Shown in pieces: positions 35,693 through 49,565 of a stretch of 64,000 nt of DNA; within the stretch, counting starts at the first letter, position 1, and every line of letters starts with the position of its first letter. The stretch comes from an uncultured Roseobacter sp. Lineage in GTDB: Bacteria; Pseudomonadota; Alphaproteobacteria; Rhodobacterales; Rhodobacteraceae. Location: assembly GCF_947495025.1 (NCBI RefSeq), contig NZ_CANLXG010000002.1, positions 994,124-1,058,123 on the forward strand, written 5' to 3'. A program made the position numbers and the translations under genes. The notes under the pieces were generated by a model, which was not told the DNA's origin, searched no databases, and saw only the letters and a program-made list of their open reading frames with translations.

Positions 35693-36552
35693 AGCAGCCC
35701 CGCATCGCGATCACTGTCTTCACGTGCGCCGGTCATCATACTGTCAAACCAAAGCTGGGTCAGGTAGTAGCGCACCACTTTGCCTTCGCCGAAATTCGCA
35801 TTGGTGCGCAGCTGCAGCCGGAAGTGGTGTTGCTGTGTGTCTGCAACCCAGCGCAGGCGCAGCCGGTCCGCATAGGAGCCATACATCGCCGTCTGCGTTT
35901 TGATAGAACGACGCCGGAACAGCCAGTTCAGGATGGGGTTGCGCGGATGATAGGCATTCATGGCGATGGCGTGCATCATTGAATATCGCCCCTTGCGCGG
36001 CTCACCCCCCGTACCAGCGGTGACCTCAAAACACTGACAGCCGGTCAGCGGTTGGGTGATGTCGTGCCATTTGCCATCCGCTCTGACATGCGGAATGCGG
36101 TGGCTGGTCACCCCGATCCTGCCACGCATCCGTGCCACACCATCGACATCGAGGCGCCAGTCCGGTGCTTCGTGTGCAACCCCGACGCGCCCGTCCCGCG
36201 TGATACTGAGCCCCGCCGGGCCCGGTCCGTCGGCGGTGTTTTCTTCCTCTGCAGCGCCTGGCGCGAACTCGAGCGCTGACTTGCCCTGGTCCGGCCGGAA
36301 ATGCAGTGCGCCGGGCGCATCACCGTGTTCCAGCACCCAGGACGGTTTGGGTGTTCCCAGACCCTGATACAGGCTTAGAACACGCAGGGAGGAACCAACC
36401 GAGTTCAGCCGCAACCCGTCTGCGTCCGTTTTGGCAAAGCCGTCATCAACCTGATTAACGGTGCTGTCGATCAGGTCCCGGTATTCAGCCGCCGTGGGCA
36501 GAGCGCCGCTGCGGAAAAAGGATTTGAGAGTAGCGCGATCTTGTTTTGTCAC
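35689..36552 (-). CDS. Short eCIS tail fibre / fibre-attachment protein (Afp13-like)
   Basis: N-terminal RATLKSFFRSGALPTAAEYRDLIDST as in CIS fibre N-termini; one GRVGV..EAPDWRLDVDG fibre-type repeat; GTGA overlaps on both sides. Confidence 0.65.
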   Translation of the reverse strand: MTKQDRATLKSFFRSGALPTAAEYRDLIDSTVNQVDDGFAKTDADGLRLNSVGSSLRVLSLYQGLGTPKPSWVLEHGDAPGALHFRPDQGKSALEFAPGAAEEENTADGPGPAGLSITRDGRVGVAHEAPDWRLDVDGVARMRGRIGVTSHRIPHVRADGKWHDITQPLTGCQCFEVTAGTGGEPRKGRYSMMHAIAMNAYHPRNPILNWLFRRRSIKTQTAMYGSYADRLRLRWVADTQQHHFRLQLRTNANFGEGKVVRYYLTQLWFDSMMTGAREDSDRDAGLL

Positions 36553-39500
36553 GGGATATTCCTCTGGCCGACGATGAGCATGTCGCCGACAGTCAGGTTG
36601 CCGATGCCGGCAGCTGAGGGGGCTTCATCATCAATTTCTGGCAGGATTGTCAGGATATGGTCCGCCGTCGACAGCGGCAGGCTCCATGGAAATCTGGGGG
36701 TCAGCACAGGGCCATAGGTGCCGCCGCGCGGGTCGTTTACCTCCTGAGCCGTGTCCAGAAGCTGATAGCTCCGGGCATCATCACCCACGAGGTGCAGAAC
36801 AGAAAAATCGGTGATGTCATCGACATATGGCAGTGCTGCGATATGGGCGCGCAGCATGTGTACGTTCAGCGACCAGCCGAAGCGCGCAAGAGAATCGTCG
36901 GCAGTCCAGACAGAGAGGTACCGGGCCAGGTCGCGACGCAGCATCTGCGCCATCGCCCCGTTTTCACGATCTGCGGTGACCGAAAGCTTGGCACGTACCT
37001 GCAGCCGTTCAAAGGTTGGATTAACAACATCCAGCTGCGCCTCTTCACTCACATAGTCGCTCAGCCAGTCACGGATGCGTTCAAGGGTGGCCACGTCAAA
37101 CAGGGCGGGCGCAGGCGTATGCAGTGCAGGATCTGCTGTGGGTTTCCGGGTCACAACCAGAGTGACAGTTCCCGGAGCAGGCGCCGGAGTTTTCCGGCTG
37201 AGATGCGGCAGACATTTTGCCATCCAGACCTCAGGGAATTTTTCGAGCACCATCCGCTCCATGTCCCAGGGGCGCACACCGCGACGACGGTGACGCAGCC
37301 TTTCGCCCACGCGGGCGGTAAACGCATCGGGAGGTTCCGGCGGTCGTATTTCCGCGGGTGTCACGATTTCGGACGGCGGAGAGAGGCCCGGCTGCGCCTG
37401 AGAAAAGGACCATGTGCGTGGTGTTCCATGGTTCTTCCAGGTGTCATCACGCCTGCAGACCCAGACACCGTTGACGGAAACCCTGCTCAGCGCGGGGAAG
37501 ATTTCGAGGTGTGGGCGCGTTGCTACGGCGGCCAGCCAGACACCGCCAGCGGGCATTTCGGGCGAATGATCCGTTGCATCGTCGGGCAGGTCGATCACCA
37601 CAAGGCCGGACCGCATCAGCCCGGCGGTGGTATCAGAGGAAAGTGCCGTTTCCGGCAGGTCGGCCCATCCGTGCGCGGACAGGTATTTCCACCGTATCGG
37701 GTTTGCATCAGGCACCAGGCGCAGATGCCCCGACTGGGCCATATCGAAGGCCAGTGTTACGGGGCCGGTGGCATCAGCACCCGTCAGCTGAAAGGCCACA
37801 TGTCCATAACCCATACGTTCGGGAAACAGCCGGATGCCGCGCAACATACGCTGTGGAAAGACCCCGACACGGCCAAAAGGCCCGACCTGGTGTACTGTTT
37901 CCCCAGGACGGGCGGTGTCCGGAGCATTCAGCTCGATCGTCGCTTCTGCGGTGTATGCCAGTGAGAAACGGCTGATTTCGGGCACATAGGGCGCTGGTGG
38001 AATTTTCCGGGTGCCCAGCGGGAGAAGACGCGGGCGCATCGCGTTCACGAGGGCAACCGGATACTGCCCTGCCAGAAAACCATCGGCCGTGCCGGCAAGC
38101 CGCATCCGAATCATGCCTGCACGTACGGTCTGGCGTGACTGGTATTCGGCTGCTGTCACGACGCCCGTCGCGGGGATAGAGTGGCCGGACACCTGTCCGG
38201 TGAATTCCCACGCCGGCAGCAGCGCACCCGTGACGCCCTCGGTCTGAAACAGCGGAAGCGGTGCATCGCTGACCGGCTTCCATCCGTCCCCGCTGAGATA
38301 TTCGACGGTCAGTTCAGGCGCAGGCACCTCTATGTTACGACCATATGCTTCATAGTGGGCGTCAAAGCCACCAAGCGGATCGGGCATACCGCTCCAGCTG
38401 AGGCTGATACTGACCCGGGTGACCGGCTTACGTCCCATTTCAGCGCAACCTACCTGGAAGGTCGCGCCATCGCGGGGTCGAGGGCCAAAAGGTCTGAACG
38501 TCTGATCGGTCACGACGGGCCCGGTGTCCGAAAAAGCAGCCAGCCTCCGCAGACCGGTGACCTGCGTGCGTATCGCGACGGTTTCGATCGTGTAGCTCTC
38601 GAAGAACGAAACCGGGCAAAGCCGCGAGTCGGTGGCGTACCGCAGGGCCAGCACAGGGGCATGCTCCGGACCGGTCAGCGCCGGTGCGCTTTCGTCATAG
38701 CGCAGGCTCAGCGTGATGCCTCCAGCGGCCTGGGCATGCCGGATCGGCAGAACCTGCATGATGTCCGGTCGCAGAGGGCCATCTTCGGTGGTGACTGTGA
38801 TGTCAAAAGCGTCGCCGAGCAGGCTCTGAAACACATCTTCGGGCGGGTAGTCGATTGTACCGTCGGGTTTCTGGGAGAAAGCCGCAAAGATCATCGAGCT
38901 CTGGCCGTGGTCTGTATCGGTTTCCGTGCTGCGTCCTGTAAGCTCGGGGCGAAACCGCTGCACCAGTGCATAGATCTGGTCCCAGTAGTCACCTGCCGGA
39001 AAGTCATACTGCTCGATGAGCGACAGCGTCACAATGCGCCCCAGCAGGAGGCGCAGTTGTCCTGGTCTTTCAACCCGGTTCATCAGATAGCGATAGACAA
39101 GTGACAGGGAGGTCGTCTGGTTCGTTTCAGCAGCGAATTCTGTCACCCCGTGCGTCAGCTCTTCAGCGGCGGTTTCCGTTTTTCCTGTGCAGAACGCCCT
39201 GACCAGCGCAGTATCTGCCGCGAGCGCAAGCCGGACTTCCGGATCTGCCCATTCGGGTGTTGTGGTCAGGTTCCGCCGCAGGTCTGGTATTACGCTCGCC
39301 CGTACCGAGGCCTTTCGCCGCTCGGCGCGCTCTCTGATCTCGGCGCGTGTCAGGGGCCGGGATCCGGCGGGCAGGTTTGAGGCCCGCCTCATGTGCAGGG
39401 TGACTTCTATCCGCCGGGTCCCCTCCGCCAGCGAAAGCACAGGCGAGGCAATATCGAGGCCAGTGTCGAGTGGCAGTTCGGATCCGCTGGCAAACAACGT

Positions 39501-40550
39501 CGATCCATCGGGCCGAGGGTCAGCGCCGATGCGTGCGGCACGCAGGCCGGTGATCCCTGCCAGAGCACGATTGTAGGAGATATCCGGGTTCGTCTCGTAA
39601 CTCAGCACGCAGATGTCGCTGATCCGTGCGGTGCTGAGTGGCACAGCGGCTTCTGTACTGAACTGTTGTACAGTACCGTCCGGTAACAGCGCCTCCAGAC
39701 CTGCACCCTGCTTCAGAACGCCCGGCCGCGGGACCTTGCCGAGATCCAGGAGAACCATCTCCGGACTGGCATCTGCAGGTTTCTGCCCGATAATGTCGCG
39801 ATAGTAGTGTTGGGTGTGCCGTGCGGGCAGCTGATTGATCACCGCATCCACGTGGCCTGCTGTCCGCAATTCGGCTATCAGCAGGCCGAGGCCCGGATCT
39901 ATTCCGCCGGACACAATCCTTGCATCAAAGGCTTTGCGGGCCATGGGCTGCAGTGCGCTGACGGCGTTGCGCAGAATGGTGTGGATGGCACGCAGCCGTT
40001 CGCGCGTAGCGCGCGCAGCGGCCAGAGCGCCGGCCGACCGCTCAGCCTCGCGCACAGTCCTGTGCTCGCCCGCGCGGCGCAGCACCACGGATGGCTGCAC
40101 TCCGGCAAGTGACTGAACAAGTGTCGTCAGAGCGACTTCCTTATCCATCTGCTCAAGCTGGCGCGAGAAAACGACCGGCTTTTGCAACCTTATGCGGCGG
40201 AGCCATCCGTCTAGTCGTGCGGCGAGTGCACTGATCTGCGACAGCGCGCTGGCAGGTTCCTGCTCGAGTGCCTCGGCAAATTCAAAGCCCGCATCGTCTG
40301 CCCTGAAGGAAAGCAGCTGTGCGTAGAGCCATGCGGGTTCATTCTGAAAAAGCCGCGCCCATGGTCCCGCCCGGCGATCTTCTGACGCTACGGCAACATC
40401 TGCTGCGCCCAGACGCTCGCCCGCCGCAGCAAAAGCCTGTGCAAGGTCGTCCGGGCGCACCTCGAACCGGCGTGGCGCGAGTGGACGGGGCAGGCGCCGC
40501 GTGGCCAGTGAGCCGGGTGTCACCCTGATATCCTGCCAGCGGTGGCTCAT
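36549..40550 (-). CDS. eCIS baseplate J/gp47-like protein (Afp11/Pvc11-like)
   Basis: HTQHYYRDIIGQKP, FRPFGPRPRDGATF.VG, RVGERLRHRRRGVRPWDMERMVLEKFPEV and PTFERLQVRA motifs; start placed at MSHRWQD. Confidence 0.9.
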   Translation of the reverse strand: MSHRWQDIRVTPGSLATRRLPRPLAPRRFEVRPDDLAQAFAAAGERLGAADVAVASEDRRAGPWARLFQNEPAWLYAQLLSFRADDAGFEFAEALEQEPASALSQISALAARLDGWLRRIRLQKPVVFSRQLEQMDKEVALTTLVQSLAGVQPSVVLRRAGEHRTVREAERSAGALAAARATRERLRAIHTILRNAVSALQPMARKAFDARIVSGGIDPGLGLLIAELRTAGHVDAVINQLPARHTQHYYRDIIGQKPADASPEMVLLDLGKVPRPGVLKQGAGLEALLPDGTVQQFSTEAAVPLSTARISDICVLSYETNPDISYNRALAGITGLRAARIGADPRPDGSTLFASGSELPLDTGLDIASPVLSLAEGTRRIEVTLHMRRASNLPAGSRPLTRAEIRERAERRKASVRASVIPDLRRNLTTTPEWADPEVRLALAADTALVRAFCTGKTETAAEELTHGVTEFAAETNQTTSLSLVYRYLMNRVERPGQLRLLLGRIVTLSLIEQYDFPAGDYWDQIYALVQRFRPELTGRSTETDTDHGQSSMIFAAFSQKPDGTIDYPPEDVFQSLLGDAFDITVTTEDGPLRPDIMQVLPIRHAQAAGGITLSLRYDESAPALTGPEHAPVLALRYATDSRLCPVSFFESYTIETVAIRTQVTGLRRLAAFSDTGPVVTDQTFRPFGPRPRDGATFQVGCAEMGRKPVTRVSISLSWSGMPDPLGGFDAHYEAYGRNIEVPAPELTVEYLSGDGWKPVSDAPLPLFQTEGVTGALLPAWEFTGQVSGHSIPATGVVTAAEYQSRQTVRAGMIRMRLAGTADGFLAGQYPVALVNAMRPRLLPLGTRKIPPAPYVPEISRFSLAYTAEATIELNAPDTARPGETVHQVGPFGRVGVFPQRMLRGIRLFPERMGYGHVAFQLTGADATGPVTLAFDMAQSGHLRLVPDANPIRWKYLSAHGWADLPETALSSDTTAGLMRSGLVVIDLPDDATDHSPEMPAGGVWLAAVATRPHLEIFPALSRVSVNGVWVCRRDDTWKNHGTPRTWSFSQAQPGLSPPSEIVTPAEIRPPEPPDAFTARVGERLRHRRRGVRPWDMERMVLEKFPEVWMAKCLPHLSRKTPAPAPGTVTLVVTRKPTADPALHTPAPALFDVATLERIRDWLSDYVSEEAQLDVVNPTFERLQVRAKLSVTADRENGAMAQMLRRDLARYLSVWTADDSLARFGWSLNVHMLRAHIAALPYVDDITDFSVLHLVGDDARSYQLLDTAQEVNDPRGGTYGPVLTPRFPWSLPLSTADHILTILPEIDDEAPSAAGIGNLTVGDMLIVGQRNIP

Positions 40551-40551
40551 A

Positions 40552-41544
40552 TCATTCGGCCTCCGCATCGTCTTCGGCTGCCGGGGGCAGGTCTGACAGG
40601 AAAACACCCGTCAGGGTTCCCGCGTCGCTCTCGATCAGGAACGTCCCACCGGCAGAAACAGGCGGTGCGGGGCGTTCTTCGGGCGCGAACTGTGCGGACT
40701 CAAAAACTGCCCGGAAAGGCACGGCGTCACGCCCCGTTTTAAAGGGCGGCAGTAGCGGGCCATCGCCGTCCTGCACGGAAACCACGCCTTTGCCGCTGCT
40801 GACGAACCGTCCGCCGCACTGAAACAGGTTGGTCCACGTCAGTCTGTCAAATGGCAGATCTGCGTCAAATCCACTGGCTGCAAAAGCACCCCGGCCTGAA
40901 CCGTACCCCGCCTGAAGTGAAAAACGGCCCCTGGCCTTTGTGACAGTAACACCGCCGTCGGTATCAGGGGTGATCAGTTCCAGCGCAATTGGCCCCGAAA
41001 AGGTCACCGAGCCGGTCGATGGAATTTCCACCTCGGCCGCACCCGGCCCGATGACCATCGGCCCGCTGAAAGCCAGATCAAAAATATTGTAGGAAACATC
41101 ATAGACGTTGGGCAGCGCGCCGGTTGTGCCAAACCCGCCACGTTCGGTTGCATCCGCCTTGCGCGACCCAACACCCGGCGTGCTGTCGCCGGGCCGGTCC
41201 TCGACCTGCGCAGACCGGTCAATAAAGGAAAACCGTGGCGCAAGTCCCAGGGTCGAACTGCTCCCGATCAGCAGAACGGTATCATAGTCATAGCCTGCGG
41301 TAGCGGACCGGCGCAGAAGCGAGCCCGCCATTTCCTTGTCATCAGCGTCTTCTGCCAGGCAGGGTCCGGCAGCCGGGGCGATACCGATAATACGTGTCGT
41401 CTCGGTCGACCGCAGAAATTCGGGCAGGGCCAGTTCCGGCAGCTCAGGCAGCGGTATTTCTTCCAGCACTGAACAGCTGCCAAGGGTCAGTGCGACCCCA
41501 AGACCGGCGACCCGGCCAGCTGCTGATATGTGGAACCCTGCCAT
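40552..41544 (-). CDS. Putative lipoprotein with TbpB/fHbp-like beta-barrel, inside the baseplate genes
   Basis: Lipobox LGSC after a hydrophobic leader; IPSTGSVTFSG...AGGTFLI...GTLTGVFLS pattern; GAGGA RBS; 1-bp gap to the downstream baseplate ATG. Confidence 0.55.
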   Translation of the reverse strand: MAGFHISAAGRVAGLGVALTLGSCSVLEEIPLPELPELALPEFLRSTETTRIIGIAPAAGPCLAEDADDKEMAGSLLRRSATAGYDYDTVLLIGSSSTLGLAPRFSFIDRSAQVEDRPGDSTPGVGSRKADATERGGFGTTGALPNVYDVSYNIFDLAFSGPMVIGPGAAEVEIPSTGSVTFSGPIALELITPDTDGGVTVTKARGRFSLQAGYGSGRGAFAASGFDADLPFDRLTWTNLFQCGGRFVSSGKGVVSVQDGDGPLLPPFKTGRDAVPFRAVFESAQFAPEERPAPPVSAGGTFLIESDAGTLTGVFLSDLPPAAEDDAEAE

Positions 41545-41550
41545 GCGTCC

Positions 41551-41988
41551 TCAGATCGCCAGAACCGGCGTATCAGACACAAGCGTGCCTTCGCGGATAT
41601 AGAAGGGGTAAACCATATTCGAACGCGAGTTTGACTGATCGACGGTGTAGTCAAGCGCAACTCCGATGCGTCCTTCGAGCCAGTCCCGCATAATCACCTC
41701 AACGCGGTGCAGTGTGACGCGGGGCTCAAAAAAGAGGATGGCCTGGCGCACTGCCGTTTCGATCCCCGCCTGTGTTTCTGCGTTGTTCGGTTCAAAAACG
41801 TAGTCGTGGATGCGACATCCATAGGCAGGTTGCATGATCCGTTCGCCGGGCCTTGTGTTCATCAGAATGCGCAGACTTTCGGCCACGTCCTCTTCTGCTT
41901 CTGCCATGCGGATCTCGCCGGTTGCCGGATCAAATTCAGGCGGGAAATGCCACCCGCGGCCAAGAAATCCCGGATCACGCTCTGCCAT
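41551..41988 (-). CDS. GPW/gp25 baseplate wedge protein (Afp9-like)
   Basis: FLGRGWHFPP...ESLRILMNTRPGERIMQPAYGC...FFEPRV...NSRSNMVYPFY. Confidence 0.93.
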   Translation of the reverse strand: MAERDPGFLGRGWHFPPEFDPATGEIRMAEAEEDVAESLRILMNTRPGERIMQPAYGCRIHDYVFEPNNAETQAGIETAVRQAILFFEPRVTLHRVEVIMRDWLEGRIGVALDYTVDQSNSRSNMVYPFYIREGTLVSDTPVLAI

Positions 41989-41991
41989 GGT

Positions 41992-42282
41992 TCATCCCCC
42001 GATGATCACAGTTGGCGCGCCCGCGACGATCACACCGCCATGTGCGGTTGTGTCCCCCATCCGGGCTGCCGGGCTGCCGCCGATCATCACCGTGGCCGAA
42101 CCTTTGGTGATTGAAGCCGTTGGTCCCACACAGACACAGTTATCGCCCTGGACCGCCGCCGGAAGGCCGACAATCAGTACAGTTGCCTCGCCGGGTCCCA
42201 CGATCGGTCCGCCTACATGAGGCACTACACCGTTCACTGCGGGACAGGTGTGCATATCGGTCAGTCTTGCTGCTGGTGGCAT
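41992..42282 (-). CDS. PAAR spike-tip protein (Afp10-like)
   Basis: PPAARLTD, GLPAAVQGD and GSPAARMGD repeats. Confidence 0.95.
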   Translation of the reverse strand: MPPAARLTDMHTCPAVNGVVPHVGGPIVGPGEATVLIVGLPAAVQGDNCVCVGPTASITKGSATVMIGGSPAARMGDTTAHGGVIVAGAPTVIIGG

Positions 42283-42314
42283 CCCCCCGGACCCCCTCTT
42301 GTTGTCTTGTCGTT

Positions 42315-44081
42315 TCAGTTAATCATCACAATCGAGCCCTCGACCGTGGTCTGCCCTCCGGACGACAGTTTGGCGGTCGCGTTGCCCTCGACCGTCAGTT
42401 CGGTCTGTGCCGTGCAGGTGATGTTCATGCCTTCGATGGTTGCATCCTGCGTGGCCTCTGCGGTGATGTTCTGCGTCGCCGTAATGGAAATGTCCTTGTC
42501 GGACGTGATGGCGATACCGCTGTCATCCATGACGATGGAATTGCCGTTCATGTCCTCCATGGAAAACGTGCTGGCGTCGTCATCCAGCGTCAGCGTATGC
42601 CCGCCCGGCGTGCTGACCGTGATGATCTTTTTGTCGTCGTCAAAGGTCATCCTGAGTTCCGAGCGGGTGGTGATTGTCTTGAGGTTATTGTCCTCTTCGG
42701 CGTCAATCGGCCGTGCCGCGGTTCCGTTGTGCAGTGAGCCGACAATGACCGGCGCTTCCGGATCAGCGTTCAGAAAGGCCACAACCACCTCGTCGCCCGT
42801 TTCGGGCAGAAACTGGATACCTGCCGCTGACGAGGCATAAGGCTGTGCATAGCGCGCCCAGACCTTTGCCGGCGGATCACCGACGAGGGGCAGTTCGATC
42901 TGGATGCGCAGCCGGGTATCGGGGTCTTCGGCCACGGTAAGGACCTTGCCGATCTGCAACCCGTGTATCGGCGCATTCATCGCCTCAGCGGCAGGGCTGG
43001 CAAAGCCCGTGCTGTCTGACGTCCAGTCCGGCGGCAGGCCCAGCCTGCACACCGTCAGCCAGGTGCCCGCCTCGATCCTGTGCTCGACAGAGACAGCATA
43101 TCCTGTGCCGCTGTAGCGTTCGCCAAAACCCTTGATTTCAAGGGTTTTGCCTGGTTCGATCATGTTGTTTCCCTGATAGGTGACAGAGCCCGAAACTGCC
43201 CCCAGACCTGCCCGCGTGGTCCGCGCCTTGCTCCGCGTGGTCAGCTCGGCAGATGCAACCGTTGCGGCGGTAAAGGCGGTATGCTCGCGGTCGCTGAGAA
43301 CTTCGGCGAGATTTGCGGCCGTGACATTGTCCGGTGTCAGCCCGGTCACAGTCGCAGAGGTGCCCGACACAGTTTCCTGTGTGGTGTCGTCCCAGGATGT
43401 CGCGCTGGCCGATTTGATCATGCGCTGGGAATCGATCTCGATGTCGAGCTCCAGAACATCAGCGCCCACGGTGACCTCCAGTGACACCGCCGCCGAGGTA
43501 TCCGGTGCTTTGACAGAAACCTTGCCTGCAATGACATTGACCACCAGGCCGTTGCGGTCCGCCAGCAGGCGCAGATAATCCCAGTCGGTTGTGCCTGCGC
43601 GCAGCTTGTCTGCTGCGGTATCCGTCGTGGCCTCCACATCCGCCGTCAGACCGGCATCGCCGATGATGTCAGATATGACGTCACTGTCCTTTTTCTCCTC
43701 ATAGCGCACCGACTTGCGGATTTCGGTCATCCCGATGGCCTTGTCGCGGCAATAAAGCTCAAGGCGCAGACCTGTATTGCTGTCGATCCTGGCACGGCTC
43801 GAAATAATCAGCCCCTTGAACAGCGTCTGATCCGCCCCGTCGCCGTAGAAGGCGGCGATCTCTATTTCCTTGCCCGCCACAAAGTCCGCAGCGTCGAGCT
43901 CATCAAAGTCATCCGTCTGCAGCGAACCGGACAAAATGGTGACCTGTGCCTCGGGGATACGGTTCAGACCGCTGCGGACCCGCACGGAGGCGATGAGTAT
44001 GTCGTCAGAGATCTGCGCCCCTTCGATCTTGACGGTGACCCCGACGGATCCTGTTGAACCTGTTTCCGGACTGTCAGCCAT
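42315..44081 (-). CDS. VgrG-like central spike protein (Afp8-like)
   Basis: LNRIPEAQV, TDWDYLRLLADRNG, gp5 OB-fold region QFLPETGDEVVVAFLNADP..PVIVGSLHN and C-terminal beta-repeats ending TTVEGSIVMIN. Confidence 0.92.
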   Translation of the reverse strand: MADSPETGSTGSVGVTVKIEGAQISDDILIASVRVRSGLNRIPEAQVTILSGSLQTDDFDELDAADFVAGKEIEIAAFYGDGADQTLFKGLIISSRARIDSNTGLRLELYCRDKAIGMTEIRKSVRYEEKKDSDVISDIIGDAGLTADVEATTDTAADKLRAGTTDWDYLRLLADRNGLVVNVIAGKVSVKAPDTSAAVSLEVTVGADVLELDIEIDSQRMIKSASATSWDDTTQETVSGTSATVTGLTPDNVTAANLAEVLSDREHTAFTAATVASAELTTRSKARTTRAGLGAVSGSVTYQGNNMIEPGKTLEIKGFGERYSGTGYAVSVEHRIEAGTWLTVCRLGLPPDWTSDSTGFASPAAEAMNAPIHGLQIGKVLTVAEDPDTRLRIQIELPLVGDPPAKVWARYAQPYASSAAGIQFLPETGDEVVVAFLNADPEAPVIVGSLHNGTAARPIDAEEDNNLKTITTRSELRMTFDDDKKIITVSTPGGHTLTLDDDASTFSMEDMNGNSIVMDDSGIAITSDKDISITATQNITAEATQDATIEGMNITCTAQTELTVEGNATAKLSSGGQTTVEGSIVMIN

Positions 44082-44087
44082 GATCCC

Positions 44088-44771
44088 TCACCTCATCGGC
44101 GGGAACCGCAGGAGCGTATTCGGCTCAAGGTCCCGGAAATTATCGAGATCGTTGTGGGCGGCGATTTCGAGGTATTTGCCTGCATCCTTGTAGATGCGGT
44201 GGCACAGCAGCGGCAGCGTGTCGCCGGTCTGAACACGAACGAGGTGCGTGAGGTCGGGCGAGCGTCGCTTTGCTTCCAGGGCTTCCTGGGCGGCAGTGCG
44301 CGCTTCGATGAAGTTCAGCTTTATTTTTGCCCGCAGGGCGGTGCCATCGGGATGAAACAGTGTGTAGTCAACCGACATTTCCGTAAGCCGGCCAAAGAAT
44401 TCTTTCAGTCCGTTGCCCCAGATAATTTTGACGGCCGTCGGTTCGTGTTCATCTCCGTCATAATCATAGCAGACGGTGCGCAGTTTATCGATCTGATCCG
44501 CTACGGGCTCAGTGGAGCCGGGCACGACGCCCGTTCCGTCGATGGTCAGTGAAAAGTTGAGCTTCTCCGGATCGGCCATGGAATACTTGGGAATTGCGCC
44601 GGACTTGCCGACAGCGCTGTCACCCTTGCCCATCGTACCGGTGTACTTCAGCGAATAGTTATGGCTGTAGTTTTCAGGGTTGATCGTTGCCTCAAAGGTG
44701 TTGGCATCACCACTTTTAGGCTCGATTTTACCCGACTGGATCGCACAGCGCACAATTTTCAGCTTGGCCAC
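44088..44771 (-). CDS. Tube initiator with C-terminal LysM domain (Afp7-like)
   Basis: INPENYSHNY, YTLFHPDGTALRAKIKLNF and LysM-like VQTGDTLPLLCHRIY...YLEIAAHNDL. Confidence 0.9.
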   Translation of the reverse strand: MAKLKIVRCAIQSGKIEPKSGDANTFEATINPENYSHNYSLKYTGTMGKGDSAVGKSGAIPKYSMADPEKLNFSLTIDGTGVVPGSTEPVADQIDKLRTVCYDYDGDEHEPTAVKIIWGNGLKEFFGRLTEMSVDYTLFHPDGTALRAKIKLNFIEARTAAQEALEAKRRSPDLTHLVRVQTGDTLPLLCHRIYKDAGKYLEIAAHNDLDNFRDLEPNTLLRFPPMR

Positions 44772-44774
44772 GGC

Positions 44775-44954
44775 TCAGCGCTCCCTGCCGCGGCGAGCCG
44801 CATCCGCCAGCCGATCGTCCATTTCGCGCAGCAGATCACGACGCATCATCTCAAGCGCCGTCTCCAGGTCTTCGCGTTGCTCCGCGGGCCGTGTGTCATC
44901 CCGCGCCGGACCAAAGCGCCCTTTCAGCACAAGCGTACCGATCTCGACCGCCAT
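44775..44954 (-). CDS. Small Afp6/DUF5908-like protein, 59 aa (below the ORF-track cutoff)
   Basis: Translated by hand: MAVEIGTLVLKGRFGPARDDTRPAEQREDLETALEMMRRDLLREMDDRLADAARRGRER*; TGATG overlap with the tube gene; occupies the afp6 position between afp5 and afp7. Confidence 0.8.
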   Translation of the reverse strand: MAVEIGTLVLKGRFGPARDDTRPAEQREDLETALEMMRRDLLREMDDRLADAARRGRER

Positions 44955-45409
44955 CAGACTGACCTCACCAGTGTGGTATAGGCCAGTTCAATTGTCTCAA
45001 CCGCCAGTTCATTTTTCATTGCGTCAAATCCCCCAACCGTCCATTTGACCGGATACGCGTTTCCGACGGTCCACACGGCCACCGGAATACGCTTTTCATT
45101 CAGCAACGACACCGTGATGTCCTTGGGCACGATGGCCTCGGCAAAATCGCCCTCGATGGTCGATTTGCACCACTGCACGAGACCACTGGCCTGGGTGGTC
45201 ATTCCGCGTTTCAGCTTGAGATTCCCGCGCTTTGCAGGTTTCGGAAGCTGATGCACGAAACGGTTTTCGCCACCCTCGACCACCGGCTCGGTTTCCAGGC
45301 TGCTTTCGAGCCCGGAAACCTCCTGAAACGCCATGTCGGGCACCGGTGGGACCATTCCCACGAACATGACCGAAAAATGAAACGCAACAGGAGGGCTGAG
45401 CAGGTCCAT
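44954..45409 (-). CDS. Tail tube protein 2 (Afp5-like)
   Basis: PPVAFHFSV, FQEVSGL, EGGENRFVHQLP, LKLKRG and NAYPVKWTVGGFDAMKNELAVETIELAY. Confidence 0.93.
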   Translation of the reverse strand: MDLLSPPVAFHFSVMFVGMVPPVPDMAFQEVSGLESSLETEPVVEGGENRFVHQLPKPAKRGNLKLKRGMTTQASGLVQWCKSTIEGDFAEAIVPKDITVSLLNEKRIPVAVWTVGNAYPVKWTVGGFDAMKNELAVETIELAYTTLVRSV

Positions 45410-45413
45410 ATGG

Positions 45414-45872
45414 TTACGCGTTCTCGATCACGAAACCTTCGTGTGCGATCTCGATGCTCTCCACCGCAACCTCATTGCCTTCGGCCTTGAGATCGGTGCT
45501 GGTCACCTTGACCGGGAAGGCATTCTGCACCTTCCAGACCATCGTGGGCGCCTGGGTTTCATCGAGCAGCGAAATAGTGATCGCCTTGCGCTTGATCACG
45601 TTCATCTGGATCTCGGCGAACCAGTCCCAGATCGCGTTATCCTGAATGAACACACCCTTCTTCATGGTGATATTCCCTGATTTGAGCATCCCGGGCATTT
45701 TCACCTTGGAGAACACCGGACTGTTGCCTGCGCGGTACTCCAGTACCTCGCTTTCGATATCCAGACCGGAGACTTCCTGAAAAGCCAGTTCCGTGTCGTC
45801 CCACTTTACCTGAAAGTGGAACTTGGGAAGCGGCCAGACCGCCGTTGTCTGGGCGGAGCCATCATCTGCCAT
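45414..45872 (-). CDS. Tail tube protein 1 (Afp1-like, T4 gp19 family)
   Basis: WPLPKFHFQV, FQEVSGL, KMPGMLKSGNITMKKG and NAFPVKVTSTDLKAEGNEVAVESIEIAHEG. Confidence 0.95.
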   Translation of the reverse strand: MADDGSAQTTAVWPLPKFHFQVKWDDTELAFQEVSGLDIESEVLEYRAGNSPVFSKVKMPGMLKSGNITMKKGVFIQDNAIWDWFAEIQMNVIKRKAITISLLDETQAPTMVWKVQNAFPVKVTSTDLKAEGNEVAVESIEIAHEGFVIENA

Positions 45873-45897: not shown

Positions 45898-48240
45898 TTA
45901 TGATTTCTGCATTTGTTGCTGGAACGTGATCTCGATGAATTCCGCCGGACGTGTCACGGCCACCAGGACGGTGATCAGCAGCTTGCCCTCAAGAATATCC
46001 ACCGGCGTCATCGTCTCGCCGAGGCCGACATGCACGCTGAACGCATCGGTAGGCACGGCACCCGCCAGACCGCCCGCTTTCCAGACCGAGGTCAGGAAGT
46101 TTTCGATCATCGACCGGATCGTGACCCAGGTCTGGGCTGTGTTCGGTTCAAAGACATAGGCCTTGGCCGCGAGCCGGATCGATTCCTCGATCATGATCAT
46201 GGTGCGGCGCACGTTGATGTAACGCCAGTCCAGGCTGTTGCCATCGAGCGTACGCGCGCCCCAGACGAGGGTCCCCTCACCAACGAACGGCCTGATCGCG
46301 TTGATCGATTTGCCCGTTGTGGAAACGTTGAGGTTTTCCTGCTGGCCGTGATCGATGTTGACCATCGGCCCGGTGACGCCGGCTACCGAAACGTTTGCGG
46401 GCGCTTTCCAGACACCCCGCGTGTTGTCGACGGCCGTATAGACGCCGGCCATGGCTGCCGCGGGTGGCATGACGTTCATATAGGCGGCGATGGCATTCAT
46501 CACGTCCGTATAGAGCGGCACGGTGGCCCGCATGGTTTTATCGATCGTGCTGGTCATCGGGTCTGGCGGTGGATTTTCGTCCACGACGCCATCGACGAGG
46601 ATCTTGATCTCTTTCGCCTCGGACAGTTCGCCGCCGACAACCAGTTTGTAACGGACGGCGGTTTCAGCGCCGCGGAACTCTGCGTTGGGGGCAAGCACGA
46701 TATCGGTGCCATCAACCGTCCAGACACCCACACCCTTGCGGGTTACGGTTTTGTCTTTCACGGCAGCCACAGCAGCGGCCTCTGCCTCTGCTACGGCGGT
46801 CTGCAGCGGAGCAAGATCCGCATCGTCAGCCGCGTCATTCAGTGCAGTGCGCGCGGTCTGTACCGCGTCCGAGGCGTTCTTGACGGCCACTTCGTCAACA
46901 GCATCGGCGCCCAGCAGAACCACGTCATCAATGGTTGTGCCTTCTTCGGCGACCGAGATCTTTACCGGCTTTTCCTTGACCACATCGGGCAGGCCGATCA
47001 CGTCAGAGCCGACAGAGACAACGATTGTCCGCGCGGAGGTTTTGACACCTTCGTTGTCGGTGACCACGAGCTCAAAGAAACCGCCGGACCCGTCGCTGCC
47101 ATTATGCACGAAACGGATCTTTCCGTCGTCGATGTCTTTTTGCGTAAAGGCAAAGACCGCATCGGCACCTGCGAGCGCTTCTGCGCCGGCGTTTTTGGCG
47201 CCGGTGACGATCTTGCCTTTCATCTGTGCCAGAACATCCGCCGGATCGCCCTCGATCTTGTACTGAAGCTCGGAGGCCTCTGCGAGGTCGTCGGCTGCGT
47301 TGATATCAGTACCTTTCAGCACGGAGATGCCGCCCCTGGTCACCGAGATGGTAAAGTCCCCTGTCACCACTGCAGTGCCGACCTTGAGGATTTCAGGCAC
47401 CAGCGCCTTGTCCATATTTACCGAGCGTTTGAGCAGCGAGATAAACTTGTTGCGGCTGCCCAGCTCTATGTTTTCAAAGGTAAAGTCGCGCGACTGGTAT
47501 ACCGCGCTGTCGAGCCAGGGATAGTAAGCCGCACCGTAGTCGAGGTAATTTGCGCCAACATCCATGCGGAACCGTGCGATCGGGTCGCCACGCGGGCTGC
47601 GTTCATCGAGGTAACCGCCATGTACGTCCAGAATGGCGAAACGGTTTTTCATCGTGTAACCGCAGTGCGCGAGCATCTGTTGCTGAACCTTGGCACCGTT
47701 CTGGCGGTTCAGGCGCGTTGTCTCGGGGATCACAACCATCGTCGGCTCTGGTTCTTTTTCCAGCCGCTTGATCGCTTTGAGCATTGCATCGGCGTCAATG
47801 GGGTCGCTGTAGGACCCGATTGAAGTGACGTAGCAGGTGCCGCCACCATTGAGAAAGAATGCCCGCATCGCCGAGTAAAGCGTATAGGCGGTGTTCGTCT
47901 GGATCAGTTCGAATTTTTCAGGACCCGCAGGTCCGTTGGCTGTAAAAACTGCCTGTGGCAGCTCGGCGGCTGCGGCCATGTCTGCATCTTCGCCATAGGG
48001 CTGGCCGGTTCGCTCCTCGAAAGGCTGCATTCTGAACACCGGCTCCGGAGCGCCGCCGAAATAGCCATGATACTCCGAGACCGAAGTGATCTTCATCGGC
48101 GTCTCGTGCAGGGAAACGTTCCCGTTCACCGCTTTTTCAGTATAGCCGATAAAGGCCGGAACTGCCGTTGCGACCTGCACGACAGAGTTGGGAAAGGCGC
48201 TCTTTTCGACAATGTAGACGCCGGGGGTTTTCATGACCAT
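45898..48240 (-). CDS. Tail sheath protein (Afp2/3/4-like) with large internal insertion
   Basis: MKTPGVYIVE, TAVPAFIGYTEK, YGAAYYPWL, PPAAAMAGVY...RGVWKAPAN, WGARTLDGNS.DWRYINVRRT and PAEFIEITFQQ; about 265 extra residues in the middle. Confidence 0.95.
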   Translation of the reverse strand: MVMKTPGVYIVEKSAFPNSVVQVATAVPAFIGYTEKAVNGNVSLHETPMKITSVSEYHGYFGGAPEPVFRMQPFEERTGQPYGEDADMAAAAELPQAVFTANGPAGPEKFELIQTNTAYTLYSAMRAFFLNGGGTCYVTSIGSYSDPIDADAMLKAIKRLEKEPEPTMVVIPETTRLNRQNGAKVQQQMLAHCGYTMKNRFAILDVHGGYLDERSPRGDPIARFRMDVGANYLDYGAAYYPWLDSAVYQSRDFTFENIELGSRNKFISLLKRSVNMDKALVPEILKVGTAVVTGDFTISVTRGGISVLKGTDINAADDLAEASELQYKIEGDPADVLAQMKGKIVTGAKNAGAEALAGADAVFAFTQKDIDDGKIRFVHNGSDGSGGFFELVVTDNEGVKTSARTIVVSVGSDVIGLPDVVKEKPVKISVAEEGTTIDDVVLLGADAVDEVAVKNASDAVQTARTALNDAADDADLAPLQTAVAEAEAAAVAAVKDKTVTRKGVGVWTVDGTDIVLAPNAEFRGAETAVRYKLVVGGELSEAKEIKILVDGVVDENPPPDPMTSTIDKTMRATVPLYTDVMNAIAAYMNVMPPAAAMAGVYTAVDNTRGVWKAPANVSVAGVTGPMVNIDHGQQENLNVSTTGKSINAIRPFVGEGTLVWGARTLDGNSLDWRYINVRRTMIMIEESIRLAAKAYVFEPNTAQTWVTIRSMIENFLTSVWKAGGLAGAVPTDAFSVHVGLGETMTPVDILEGKLLITVLVAVTRPAEFIEITFQQQMQKS

Positions 48241-48255: not shown

Positions 48256-48990
48256 TTAAAAGATCGATACGTAAATGTCGGATTGGATCAGCGCGCCGGC
48301 CCCGTCGGGCGCAGGCACTGAGGTGAAAAGCGGCTGCGGTGCGGGCAGCACAGGAATGAGTGTGCGGGGGCCAAACGGTCCCGGGCGCGAGAGGCTGAAA
48401 CGCTGCAGCGGCCTGGCCCGTGCTGGCAGGGCGCTGCGCGTGCGGATGACGTGGGCGGGTGTTCCATCGGGCAGATCGACCGTGCCCAGCGGGTCAAATT
48501 CCACTTCACCCTCGCTGTCTTCGATAATCACTTCGTCACTGCCGGGACCTGTCACATGATAAGCCCAGTGAGAGGCGACAGCTTCGCAACGCAGCGTCAT
48601 GCGGCGCAGACTGCCGGGCACCAGACCGATGCTGACCTGAGCAAGTTTGCGGCTTGCCGCCGGCTGCGGCACCTCAGAGGGTCCTGCGGCACTGAGCAGC
48701 GCGTGATCAAGATGCCCGGGCAGGCCGATCTGCGGTACATACGTCCAGTCCGCCCCTTCGGTCAGTGCGATTACATCCGTGTTCTGTACATCCAGATCGA
48801 GTGACACGCTTTCGGGAAGATCGGTGTTATCTTCTTCTGCAACGATCAGCACCTTCGGGCCCATTTGCCGCAGCAGCAGACCCGCTTTGTCAAAACCGGC
48901 AGCATCACTCGGGCGAACGGTAACCGGGGGCATGTTTGGTGCGTAGTAATCGTGTTCCAGTCTCAGCTGCGCAATTGCCCCCCAGGTCAT
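48256..48990 (-). CDS. eCIS hypothetical protein, possible cap adaptor (Alg16B position)
   Basis: Lies between DUF4255 and the sheath; N-terminal LRLEHDYY...GLLLRQ pattern. Function inferred from position only. Confidence 0.5.
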   Translation of the reverse strand: MTWGAIAQLRLEHDYYAPNMPPVTVRPSDAAGFDKAGLLLRQMGPKVLIVAEEDNTDLPESVSLDLDVQNTDVIALTEGADWTYVPQIGLPGHLDHALLSAAGPSEVPQPAASRKLAQVSIGLVPGSLRRMTLRCEAVASHWAYHVTGPGSDEVIIEDSEGEVEFDPLGTVDLPDGTPAHVIRTRSALPARARPLQRFSLSRPGPFGPRTLIPVLPAPQPLFTSVPAPDGAGALIQSDIYVSIF

Positions 48991-49565
48991 CAGCTCGCCT
49001 CCGATGGTCTGGCTTCGCCACCCGGCGCCCGGATCAGCGGTGTGATCGACCGCACCGCGCCTGCGTCGATCATGACCGAGCGCATCTTGAACATAACAGA
49101 TGGTACGTAACGACCCCCAAGGTTGCCCCAGAGCTGTCCGACTTCCTCGACCTTCAGGTTCGAGATTTCGACGGTCAGCTGTGCGATACCTGCGGGCATT
49201 TCTGGCACCAGCTGGGGGGTCATCACCGGATTGGCCTGGAAAAACATCAGCGCCGCGGATATGAGCTTGAGCCCCTCGCCGTAGATTTCCGGATCGTGGC
49301 CCGAAGCGAGCATAAAATAGATGTCCAGATGGACTGGCGGTGCCATACCCATCTGCACCGCTGAACGTGGCCGGCTTCCGCGCGGAACCGAATCCTGTGC
49401 AATATTGGTCAGAAAAAGCGTCAGGCGGTTGCGCGATTCTGCTGTGGGTTTGCCCTCCGCATCCGACAGCGGGCCCACGGCGACCAGATCCTCTGACACA
49501 GCGAACAACGCGGACAGATGCGCGTTCAGCCGGTCGCTCACGAGGGTTAGGGCGTGATCAATCAC
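48990..49565 (-). CDS. DUF4255 cap/tail terminator protein (Afp16/Pvc16-like)
   Basis: PPVHLDIYFML, YGEGLKLISAALMFFQANP, LWGNLGGRYVPSVMFKMR; GTG start after an AGGAGG RBS. Confidence 0.92.
   Translation of the reverse strand: MIDHALTLVSDRLNAHLSALFAVSEDLVAVGPLSDAEGKPTAESRNRLTLFLTNIAQDSVPRGSRPRSAVQMGMAPPVHLDIYFMLASGHDPEIYGEGLKLISAALMFFQANPVMTPQLVPEMPAGIAQLTVEISNLKVEEVGQLWGNLGGRYVPSVMFKMRSVMIDAGAVRSITPLIRAPGGEARPSEAS

What the first reader, a model, noticed from the sequence alone, without database searches (positions are those of the whole stretch)
46570..47370. Sheath protein decorated with cadherin/CSPG-like and CshA-like adhesin domains
Seen: about 265 aa inserted between the YYPWL region and the conserved C-terminal sheath core. 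First part: FTISVTRGGISVLKGTDINAADD...LQYKI...FAFTQKDIDDGKIRFVHNGSDGSGGFFELVVTDNEG, matching the CSPG/cadherin-like repeat pattern FTQxDIDxGxIxYxHxGS. Then an Ala-rich helical hairpin inside a second beta domain, KGVGVWTVDGTDIVLAPNAEFRGAETAVRYKL, resembling CshA-type fibril/Ig repeats. Known: sheath insertions at this site project outward, and every sheath subunit would carry one. Inference: a particle coated with many adhesin domains for multivalent binding, bundling into arrays or tethering.
Basis: partly seen in the sequence, partly recalled or inferred. Interest (0 to 1): 0.78.

Follow-up and report, generated by a model that had tools for sequence, protein, structure and literature searches.

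The report
Contractile sheath decorated with Ig-like domains
The only sheath gene of a phage-tail-like injection machine in a marine Roseobacter carries a 267-residue insert of two Ig-like domains of the kind that form the stalks of giant bacterial adhesins. The insert is real and under purifying selection, relatives have gained and lost it repeatedly, and its function is untested.

Summary
The 780-aa sheath gene (45898-48240, minus strand) has a 267-residue insert (residues 291-557 = 46570-47370) that the closest solved sheath (SalCis2, PDB 9r9h) and many orthologues lack. The first domain is a Cadherin_3/CSPG repeat, above Pfam's cut-off, with a CSPG4-like fold. The second is a diverged CshA_repeat/Big_9-type beta-sandwich. 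It is below threshold in this protein but clear in orthologues and by profile comparison. A 45-residue helical hairpin is spliced into it.

The locus is a complete SalCIS-type (clade Ib) contractile injection system with one sheath gene, so every subunit carries the insert. The insert replaces the surface loop of sheath domain III, the same site where the AlgoCIS sheath has its outward domains.

Among 50 orthologues the insert is absent, single, double, or double with hairpin, with at least 12 state changes. It evolves faster than the core but under purifying selection.

The adhesion, bundling or tethering reading is untested. Both domain families are stalk modules of adhesins, not binding tips, and SalCIS itself was seen only inside cells.

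Verdict: a new variant of a known kind (accessory Ig-like sheath domains), of moderate interest.

The parts
45898..48240 (-). Sheath gene (780 aa), the only sheath gene of the genome
   Evidence: One intact ORF. Phage_sheath_1C matches residues 671-775. Best solved relative is SalCis2, 9r9h, E 4.5e-168. Single match in the genome.
47371..48240 (-). N-terminal sheath core, residues 1-290, ending in the two helices (260-273, 281-288) of the surface helix-loop-helix domain III
   Evidence: Aligns to SalCis2 residues 3-252. Helices come from the AlphaFold2 model.
47005..47370 (-). Insert domain 1, residues 291-412: Cadherin_3 / CSPG-repeat beta-sandwich
   Evidence: PF16184 scores 37-42 bits against a cut-off of 25.5. 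Foldseek to the CSPG4 repeat 7ml7_B / 7n8x_B gives E 3e-5, TM 0.52-0.54, rmsd 4.5 A. pLDDT is above 90.
46894..47004 (-). Insert domain 2, first half, residues 413-449 (CshA_repeat/Big_9-type beta-sandwich)
   Evidence: AlphaFold2 strands. Profile match to CshA_repeat segments at 98.7 % probability.
46759..46893 (-). Ala-rich, acidic helical hairpin, residues 450-494, spliced into domain 2
   Evidence: Helices 450-456, 458-468 and 477-494 at high pLDDT. Absent from the 14 two-domain orthologues without hairpin. At least 4 gains or losses on the core tree.
46585..46758 (-). Insert domain 2, second half, residues 495-552 (GVGVWTV...FxPxxxFxG...Y motif of CshA-type repeats)
   Evidence: PF19076 is below threshold here, 17.5 bits. 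It passes in 29 of 50 orthologues. hhalign E 3e-16.
45898..46584 (-). Linker (residues 553-560) and C-terminal sheath core with stop codon
   Evidence: Aligns to SalCis2 from about residue 297 to 519. PF04984 and PF17482 match.
48990..49565 (-). Cap protein gene (Pvc16_N), first gene of the structural operon
   Evidence: PF14065, E 1.6e-28.
48256..48990 (-). 244-aa gene between cap and sheath. No family match; its position suggests a cap adaptor.
   Evidence: No Pfam family and no credible solved relative. A gene of 201-269 aa sits at the same position in L003 and L008-L010.
44954..45872 (-). Two tube genes (gp19-like), directly downstream of the sheath gene
   Evidence: PF06841, E 2.6e-48 and 3.4e-43.
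28820..44954 (-). Rest of the structural operon: 59-aa ORF, CIS_tube/LysM, VgrG, PAAR, gp25, 330-aa ORF, Cis11-like (1352 aa), 287-aa ORF, Cis12-like (708 aa), tape measure (1136 aa), AAA ATPase
   Evidence: Pfam matches. Best solved relatives are SalCis11 (9rce_A, E 5e-81) and SalCis12 (9rce_B, E 4e-27). 59-aa ORF.

Best explanation
The insert is an accessory surface decoration of the sheath of a SalCIS-type (clade Ib) contractile injection system. It consists of two Ig-like beta-sandwich domains of the kind that build the stalks of giant adhesins (a Cadherin_3/CSPG repeat and a CshA_repeat/Big_9-type domain), plus a helical hairpin. Together they replace the loop of the surface-exposed helix-loop-helix domain III.

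Shown:
- Domain identities and folds.
- The insertion site.
- There is one sheath gene, so every subunit carries the insert.
- Close orthologues in intact operons lack it, so it is dispensable for the sheath core.
- It is under purifying selection, but more relaxed than on the core.
- It is strongly acidic (net -21) and free of cysteine.

Inferred:
- The module faces outward and takes no part in tube binding or the contraction handshake.
- Hundreds of copies line the particle. The estimate is about 400, from the 1136-aa tape measure at the AlgoCIS figure of 0.229 nm per residue and the SalCIS rise of 3.92 nm per ring of six.
- It acts through avidity. Weak contacts repeated many times would bind surface polymers of target or host cells after release, or other particles. 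Both are conceivably helped by the divalent cations of sea water.
For: - Cadherin_3 is above Pfam's cut-off.
- The insert-only AlphaFold2 model has pLDDT 96.4 and pTM 0.87 and shows two beta-sandwiches and the hairpin.
- The best single-domain fold match is the CSPG4 repeat; the other matches are tandem Ig or cadherin pairs of adhesion proteins and Ig-like phage structural and decoration proteins.
- Domain 2 relates to CshA_repeat through orthologues and profile comparison.
- The insert sits at the SalCis2 domain III loop and at the same site as Alg2's extra residues, whose domains III and IV point outward (PMC13266070; PMC8894135).
- The genome has a single sheath gene.
- Insert states are none, one domain, two domains, or two plus hairpin. 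At least 12 state changes occur on a tree built from core columns only. States CSh, CS-, -S- and --- all occur in CIS operons.
- dN/dS is 0.02-0.26 for the domains against 0.02-0.06 for the core.
- Identity to orthologues is 22-76 % in the insert against 62-93 % in the core.
- Net charge is -21 over 267 residues and is acidic in nearly all orthologues.
- Accessory Ig-like sheath domains, proposed to help adhesion or stability, are common in phages (PMC9230969).
Against: - No binding, localisation or structural experiment exists for this protein.
- Both domain families are stalk or spacer modules of adhesins, not known ligand-binding tips (PMC10952558, PMC8286594).
- SalCIS, the closest characterised system, was seen only in the cytoplasm near the inner membrane, with no release detected. 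It already bundles without an insert (PMC13266070).
- dS is saturated, so the dN/dS values are rough.
- A coat of net charge -21 per subunit would repel rather than attract other particles unless cations bridge them.
Confidence: 0.5

Rival explanations
1. Structural reinforcement. The inserts of neighbouring subunits touch each other or the sheath wall. They would cement the long extended sheath or tune its firing threshold, with no outside ligand.
For: - Using SalCIS helical parameters (rise 39.2 A, twist 21.6 degrees, 18 nm diameter; PMC13266070), neighbours along a protofilament lie about 5-6 nm apart at the surface. That is within reach of a two-domain module of roughly 9 nm (geometric inference).
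- pTM 0.87 suggests a rigid two-domain unit.
- Cementing by accessory sheath domains has been proposed for phages (PMC9230969).
- The SalCIS authors propose that its X-loop stabilises the extended state (PMC13266070).
Against: - Orthologues in intact operons do without the insert.
- The insert evolves much faster than the core and changes state often, which is unusual for a load-bearing lattice contact.
- No multimer model could be made.
Confidence: 0.2
2. Intracellular role. As proposed for SalCIS, the particle stays in the cytoplasm attached to the inner membrane. The acidic Ig-like coat would then set spacing in bundles, keep the long particle clear of the nucleoid and other particles, or dock a cytoplasmic partner.
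For: - Sheath, Cis11 and Cis12 all match SalCIS best.
- SalCIS was found in cytoplasmic bundles of 1-10 and was not released under the tested conditions (PMC13266070).
- The insert has no cysteine and needs no disulfide.
- It is strongly acidic, at net -21.
Against: - The non-sheath relatives found for both domains are giant tandem-repeat proteins of the adhesin type, a protein class known as extracellular (PMC8286594).
- Other clade Ib systems (AlgoCIS, MACs) are released (PMC8894135).
- The SalCIS authors say release under other conditions cannot be excluded.
- The SalCis20-like membrane protein of this locus could not be confirmed by sequence.
Confidence: 0.18
3. Nearly neutral passenger. 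A tolerant surface loop has picked up promiscuous Ig-like domains that fold independently and do nothing specific.
For: - Gain and loss are frequent.
- Constraint is relaxed relative to the core.
- The Cadherin-only state was found, where checked, only in orphan sheath genes under relaxed selection, dN/dS 0.34.
Against: - dN/dS is well below 1 in all three parts.
- The two-domain architecture is kept across several Rhodobacterales genera (Roseobacter, Paracoccus, Rhodovulum, Yoonia, Litoreibacter) down to about 70 % core identity.
- The insert adds about 34 % to the length of the particle's most numerous protein.
Confidence: 0.1

Closest known systems
SalCis2, the sheath of the Salmonella enterica subsp. 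salamae CIS (PDB 9r9h/9r9i/9r9n/9rce; Ejaz et al. 2026, PMC13266070)
   Same: Closest solved relative (E 4.5e-168), with strong alignment on both sides of the insert. Both are single-sheath clade Ib systems. The baseplate proteins Cis11 and Cis12 of the window also match SalCIS best. In both, domain III is a surface helix-loop-helix.
   Different: SalCis2 has 519 aa, and its domain III loop is short and disordered. Here that loop is replaced by 267 residues forming two Ig-like domains and a hairpin. The host is a marine alphaproteobacterium, not an enterobacterium.
Alg2, the sheath of AlgoCIS from Algoriphagus machipongonensis (PDB 7adz; Xu et al. 2022, PMC8894135)
   Same: Best fold match of the whole model. 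Alg2 carries about 245 extra residues at the same topological site, between YYPF (residue 242) and residue 489. Its extra domains III and IV extend outward, and IV is hinged.
   Different: No Alg2 chain was among the 50 best fold matches of the insert alone, so the inserted domains appear unrelated and independently acquired. AlgoCIS is a released extracellular particle.
Accessory Ig-like domains of phage tail sheath proteins (Evseev et al. 2022, PMC9230969) and Ig-like phage decoration proteins such as Hoc
   Same: Extra beta-sandwich domains inserted into the sheath, away from the tube-contacting core. They are dispensable for contraction and are proposed to aid adhesion or stability. The insert's fold matches Ig-like phage structural and decoration proteins.
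   Different: That survey describes such domains mainly in phages and notes that non-phage sheaths mostly lack them. The families here (Cadherin_3, CshA_repeat) have no PHROGs match.
Cadherin_3 / CSPG repeats of giant bacterial repeat proteins and of CSPG4 (PDB 7ml7, 7n8x)
   Same: Domain 1 passes the Pfam model. It matches the CSPG4 repeat in fold and weakly in sequence. Its nearest non-sheath relatives are proteins of 1000-6200 aa with 5-34 such repeats.
   Different: Here there is a single copy embedded in a cytoplasmically made structural protein with no signal peptide. It is not a tandem array in a secreted giant protein. No copy exists elsewhere in this genome.
CshA repeat (stalk) domains of fibrillar adhesins (PF19076; Big_9 PF17963; PMC10952558, PMC8286594)
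   Same: Domain 2 is homologous by orthologue Pfam hits and by profile comparison.
   Different: It is below the Pfam cut-off in this protein and is interrupted by a 45-residue helical hairpin. In CshA the repeats form the stalk, and the separate NR2 domain does the binding. No such adhesive tip domain is present here.

Membership tests
Contractile sheath protein of a CIS (Afp2/Cis2 type) | Conserved C-terminal sheath domain (PF17482) and N-terminal KTPGVYI strand-exchange segment | tested here: met
   PF17482 scores 44.9 bits against a cut-off of 26.9. The N-terminus aligns residue for residue with SalCis2, Cis2 of tCIS, and Alg2.
Contractile sheath protein of a CIS (Afp2/Cis2 type) | Encoded in an operon with tube, spike, baseplate, tape measure, cap and AAA ATPase genes | tested here: met
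   Pvc16_N, gp19 x2, CIS_tube, VgrG, PAAR, gp25, CIS_TMP and AAA are all present. Cis11- and Cis12-like genes are present.
SalCIS-type CIS cluster (clade Ib) | Sheath, Cis11 (with extended domain IV) and Cis12 closest to those of SalCIS | tested here: met
   Best solved matches are 9r9h (E 4.5e-168), 9rce_A (E 5e-81) and 9rce_B (E 4e-27). The domain IV extension itself was not examined.
SalCIS-type CIS cluster (clade Ib) | SalCis20-like integral membrane protein with a periplasmic hydrolase-like domain, and inner-membrane association of the particle | tested here: inconclusive
The 1105-aa last gene (25506-28823) has no Pfam family and no solved relative by sequence. Localisation cannot be tested with these tools.
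Cadherin_3 (PF16184, CSPG repeat) | Score at or above Pfam's gathering cut-off | tested here: met
   37.1 bits in the whole protein and 41.8 bits on the isolated segment; cut-off 25.5.
Cadherin_3 (PF16184, CSPG repeat) | Beta-sandwich fold like a solved CSPG repeat | tested here: met
   Foldseek to 7ml7_B and 7n8x_B: E 3e-5 to 6e-5, TM (normalised to target) 0.52-0.54, rmsd 4.5 A over about 130 columns. The query model has pLDDT 96.
Classical cadherin EC domain (PF00028) | Match to the EC-domain model with its Ca2+-binding linker motifs | tested here: not met
   No PF00028 hit even at E up to 1. Protocadherin fold matches are generic two-domain alignments with rmsd above 17 A. Ca2+ binding is not testable here.
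CshA_repeat (PF19076) / Big_9 (PF17963) | Score at or above Pfam's gathering cut-off in this protein | tested here: not met
   17.5 bits, E 0.007, against a cut-off of 27. The score is 17.3 bits with the hairpin removed in silico.
CshA_repeat (PF19076) / Big_9 (PF17963) | Homology shown through orthologues and profile comparison | tested here: met
   Among 50 orthologues, PF19076 hits 29 (best E 8e-10) and Big_9 hits 11. hhalign of the sheath domain-2 profile against segments that hit PF19076 at 2.5e-8 to 7.8e-27 gives 98.7 % probability, E 3e-16. The segments were found with this insert as query, so the set is not independent.
Fibrillar adhesin | Secretion signal, cell-surface anchor, tandem stalk repeats and an adhesive tip domain | tested here: not met
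   Pfam finds only the two sheath families and one Cadherin_3 copy, and no adhesive-tip or anchor family. There is one copy of each stalk-type domain, not a tandem array. The N-terminus is the conserved sheath strand-exchange segment; no signal-peptide predictor was run.

The most novel reading that the evidence does not exclude
The sheath itself is the targeting or assembly surface of this injection machine. Several hundred acidic Ig-like modules, with the fast-evolving helical hairpin as the exposed tip, would bind target-cell or algal surface polymers side-on, or link particles into ordered arrays in a Ca2+/Mg2+-dependent way. Lineages would retune this by swapping domains in and out of one sheath loop. 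That would make the sheath a second, modular specificity determinant beside the tail fibres, and a natural site for engineering display on CIS particles.
Probability: 0.15. Interest if true: 0.7.

Novelty: new variant of a known kind. Interest (0 to 1): 0.4.

Why it matters
- Sheaths are usually treated as the conserved engine of contractile injection systems, with specificity assigned to fibres and baseplate.
- A clade in which one surface loop of the sheath repeatedly gains and loses adhesin-type Ig-like domains shows a tolerant, evolvable display site. It would be present in hundreds of copies per particle.
- That is useful for engineering CIS-based delivery particles. It also offers natural comparisons (none, one domain, two domains, two plus hairpin) for asking what sheath decorations do.
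- It extends the newly described SalCIS-type cluster to marine Rhodobacterales.
- It does not by itself reveal a new mechanism. Accessory Ig-like sheath domains are well known in phages and in AlgoCIS.

Tried and rejected
- **A donor for the domains in the same genome:** none; the sheath is the only match.
- **PHROGs families for the insert:** none.
- **Sequence match of the insert to solved structures:** only a weak CSPG4 hit, E 0.009. The kainate-receptor hits at E 0.3-0.9 are chance.
- **Precise dN/dS:** dS is saturated (about 1-2.5, sometimes undefined) for every available pair, so only the direction of the contrast is used.
- **Recent foreign origin of the insert:** rejected. GC and GC3 of the insert (0.594, 0.678) do not stand out from those of the flanking core (0.566-0.605, 0.686-0.794).
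- **Using the closest with/without pair (P0076, P0101) as evidence about CIS function:** set aside, because both are orphan sheath genes outside any CIS operon.
- **Literature:** no paper in the library links a CIS sheath with cadherin-like domains. The one relevant hit concerns tail fibres.
- **Earlier scan notes by sequence:** none.
Full report
**1. What is at the coordinates**

Window 45898-48240 (minus strand) is one intact ORF of 780 residues. The finding's span, 46570-47370, translates in frame to residues 291-557, VVTGDFTISV...VDENP. Pfam finds the sheath C-terminal domain (PF17482, residues 671-775) and part of the sheath subtilisin-like domain.

The gene sits in a complete contractile-injection-system operon on the minus strand:
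- cap (Pvc16_N), a 244-aa gene, the sheath, and two gp19-type tube genes;
- a 59-aa ORF, CIS_tube/LysM, VgrG, PAAR and gp25;
- a 330-aa ORF, a 1352-aa Cis11-like protein, a 287-aa ORF and a 708-aa Cis12-like protein;
- a 1136-aa tape measure (CIS_TMP), an AAA ATPase and a 1105-aa last gene.

**2. Is there an insert?**

Yes. The closest solved structure is SalCis2 (519 aa, PDB 9r9h, E 4.5e-168). It is the sheath of the Salmonella enterica subsp. salamae CIS (identified through; PMC13266070). Residues 2-270 and roughly 560-780 of the window protein align strongly to it, and the roughly 290 residues between have no real counterpart.

Among the best 120 database relatives, lengths fall into classes of about 515-560, 610-660, 720-745 and 765-820 aa. 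In an alignment of 50 of them, the segment between the conserved flanks measures 43-70, 135-191, 242-259 or 291-341 residues.

**3. What the insert is made of**

*Domain 1 (residues 291-412).* Cadherin_3 (PF16184) scores 37.1 bits in the whole protein and 41.8 bits (E 1.2e-10) on the isolated segment, against a curated cut-off of 25.5. This is well beyond chance.

An AlphaFold2 model of residues 288-560, built with 37 orthologues, has mean pLDDT 96.4 and pTM 0.87. It shows two beta-sandwiches with a helical element inside the second. The full-length model agrees, with pLDDT above 90 across the insert.

Foldseek against the PDB gives the CSPG4 repeat as the best single-domain match (7ml7_B, 7n8x_B; E 3e-5 to 6e-5; TM 0.52-0.54 normalised to the target; rmsd 4.5 A). 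All other good matches are generic tandem Ig or cadherin pairs with rmsd of 12 A or more: protocadherins, NCAM, intimin D00-D0, GhpA and SrpA. phmmer also finds CSPG4 weakly, E 0.009. The classical cadherin EC model does not hit.

*Domain 2 (residues 413-449 plus 495-552).* CshA_repeat (PF19076) reaches only 17.5 bits, E 0.007, against a cut-off of 27. Removing the hairpin in silico does not help. Three further results support the assignment:
- The same domain in orthologues passes. Of 50 orthologues, 33 hit Cadherin_3, 29 hit CshA_repeat (best E 8e-10), 11 hit Big_9 and 7 hit Cadherin_5.
- Segments of giant proteins that phmmer finds with this domain are bona fide CshA_repeat/Big_9 domains, E 2.5e-8 to 7.8e-27.
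- A profile of the sheath domain matches a profile of those segments at 98.7 % probability, E 3e-16. Those segments were selected with this insert as query, so the set is not independent.

*Hairpin (residues 450-494).* It is predicted as helices 450-456, 458-468 and 477-494 at high confidence. The 14 two-domain orthologues without it join the flanking strands directly.

One qualification: membership in CshA_repeat rests on orthologues, not on this sequence alone.

**4. Where the insert sits**

[quoted passage not shown] In the window protein, helices 260-273 and 281-288 precede the insert and helices 561-573 and 575-588 follow it. The insert therefore replaces that loop.

AlgoCIS Alg2 has about 245 extra residues at the same place, between YYPF at residue 242 and residue 489. 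Its additional domains III and IV extend outward, and IV is hinged (PMC8894135, section 9). Alg2 is the best fold match of the whole model but is not among the 50 best matches of the insert alone. The two insertions therefore look independent.

Outward exposure is thus inferred by homology.

**5. Every subunit carries the insert**

The genome (99.9 % complete) has one sheath gene and no other match to PF17482. It has no other copy of the insert domains either.

The copy number can be estimated from the 1136-aa tape measure. Using the AlgoCIS coefficient of 0.229 nm per residue (bioRxiv 10.64898/2026.05.27.728243) and the SalCIS rise of 3.92 nm per hexameric ring gives about 260 nm, about 66 rings and about 400 copies. 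This is an extrapolation.

**6. What system this is**

Cis11 and Cis12 of the window also match SalCIS best (9rce_A, E 5e-81; 9rce_B, E 4e-27).

SalCIS belongs to clade Ib and is 600 nm long and 18 nm wide. It was seen as cytoplasmic bundles of 1-10 particles close to the inner membrane. Neither sheath, tube nor effectors were detected outside cells under the tested conditions. Its authors propose inner-membrane anchoring through SalCis13 and the membrane protein SalCis20 (PMC13266070, sections 6, 9-12, 14).

This matters for the adhesin reading. If this particle also stays inside the cell, the decoration faces the cytoplasm. Other clade Ib systems (AlgoCIS, MACs) are released, so both options remain open.

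**7. Evolution of the insert**

I scored each of the 50 orthologues for Cadherin_3 domain (C), second domain (S) and hairpin (h):

| State | Number of orthologues |
|---|---|
| CSh | 16 |
| CS- | 14 |
| -S- | 8 |
| C-- | 4 |
| --- | 8 |

On a maximum-likelihood tree built from core columns only, the states need at least 12 changes: at least 5 for C, 8 for S and 4 for h. The states are nevertheless clustered, since shuffled labels average 28.4 changes. This was the quick method, and 18 of 47 inner branches are poorly supported.

I checked the gene context of eight loci:
- CSh in the window and in Roseobacter weihaiensis (L003), CS- in Rhodovulum marinum (L008), -S- (L009) and --- (L010) all lie in syntenic CIS operons.
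- The two C-- genes examined (P0076, P0044) and the insert-less P0101 are orphan sheath genes with no CIS genes within 9-10 kb.
- P0076 and P0101 are 82 % identical on both flanks and differ by a clean indel of about 96 residues that is exactly the Cadherin_3 domain. A remnant, GSLAITAP in place of GDFTITVP, points to deletion.

Identity of orthologues to the window protein is 62-93 % in the core but 22-76 % in the insert domains. Nei-Gojobori estimates against four close orthologues give the following dN/dS ranges:

| Region | dN/dS |
|---|---|
| Core | 0.02-0.06 |
| Cadherin_3 domain | 0.02-0.26 |
| Domain 2 | 0.05-0.19 |
| Hairpin | 0.10-0.57 |

dS is saturated, so only the direction of the contrast is reliable. 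The insert is under purifying selection, but several-fold more relaxed than the core.

The insert has net charge -21 over 267 residues, against -6 over the 513 core residues. It has no cysteine and is acidic in nearly all orthologues. Its GC content does not stand out from that of the flanking core.

The system is sporadic. Of 400 genera sampled in the family, 12 have a sheath homologue, and the other genome of the same genus has none. The named sources of insert-bearing sheaths are all Rhodobacterales: Roseobacter, Paracoccus, Rhodovulum, Yoonia, Litoreibacter and Roseovarius.

**8. Where the domains came from**

I searched the 273-residue insert against 1.84 billion representative proteins. 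It finds 447 proteins (132 at E up to 1e-10). Apart from a few sheaths, nearly all are proteins of 1000-6200 aa matched in 5-34 stretches. The best, P0122 (4060 aa), has 30 Cadherin_3 repeats plus DUF4347. P0130 has 14 Cadherin_3 repeats and 13 Cadherin_4 repeats.

So both domains belong to the repeat repertoire of giant adhesin-like proteins. In CshA the repeats form the stalk and a separate NR2 domain binds fibronectin (PMC10952558). Big_9 is listed among stalk domains (PMC8286594). Calling them adhesin domains is therefore correct as a matter of ancestry but says little about binding.

**9. Comparison with what is known**

- A survey of 112 phage sheath models found that accessory domains are mostly Ig-like, lie away from the tube, are not needed for contraction, and might help adhesion or stability. 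It also noted that non-phage sheaths mostly lack them (PMC9230969).
- Among CIS, Alg2 has outward domains III and IV (PMC8894135).
- The insert's fold also matches Ig-like phage tail, fibre and capsid-decoration proteins in BFVD. No PHROGs family matches it.
- NCBI already names several orthologues 'cadherin-like domain-containing protein'.
- I found no paper that describes a CIS sheath with such domains.

**10. Verdict**

- The functional part (adhesion, arrays, tethering) is plausible but untested. It is tempered by the stalk nature of the domain families and by the apparently intracellular habit of the closest characterised system.
- I rate it a new variant of a known kind, of moderate interest. 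Its main value is a natural series of sheath-loop variants and a tolerant display site.

Noticed in passing
L006:10001-11902 (Roseovarius marisflavi), L007:10001-11614 (Roseovarius gaetbuli), L011:9001-10935 (Roseovarius sp. Pro17): These are intact sheath homologues standing alone, with no tube, spike, baseplate or cap gene within 9-10 kb. In L006 and L007 the gene is syntenic among housekeeping genes and sits 85 bp downstream of a co-directional 545-aa DUF4140/DUF4139 gene. dN/dS between the two is 0.34, against 0.02-0.14 for the neighbouring genes. They are either decaying remnants or sheath proteins put to another use. Whether a CIS exists elsewhere in these genomes was not checked.
   Followed up: partly
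window 25506-28823 (-): The 1105-aa last gene of the operon has no Pfam family and no solved relative by sequence. If it is the same protein, this particle may be anchored to the inner membrane.
   Followed up: partly
L010:7592-14915: In the locus of the insert-less orthologue P0074, the CIS genes stop after gp25 and are followed by unrelated genes (GCS2, ATP synthase). The baseplate, tape measure and ATPase genes must lie elsewhere or be missing.
   Followed up: no
window 49739-54085; L003:4138-8511; L008:4295-7659: The SBP_bac_3 / methyltransferase / SBP-permease genes just upstream of the cap gene recur at the same position in Roseobacter weihaiensis and Rhodovulum marinum, next to an eCIS_core (DUF4157) gene. 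They are therefore a conserved companion of this CIS type, not a chance neighbour.
   Followed up: partly
window 44775-44954 (-): A 59-aa ORF lies between the second tube gene and the CIS_tube/LysM gene. ORFs of 56-57 aa sit at the same position in L003 and L008-L010, with a weak DUF5908 hit in L008. It is probably the small spike-plug (Afp6/SalCis6-like) protein.
   Followed up: no
window 48256-48990 (-): The 244-aa gene between cap and sheath has no family. Its only solved-structure hits are weak matches to oxalate decarboxylase cupins (E about 1e-3), probably chance. By position it could be the cap adaptor (Cis16b). Its length varies from 201 to 269 aa among relatives.
   Followed up: no
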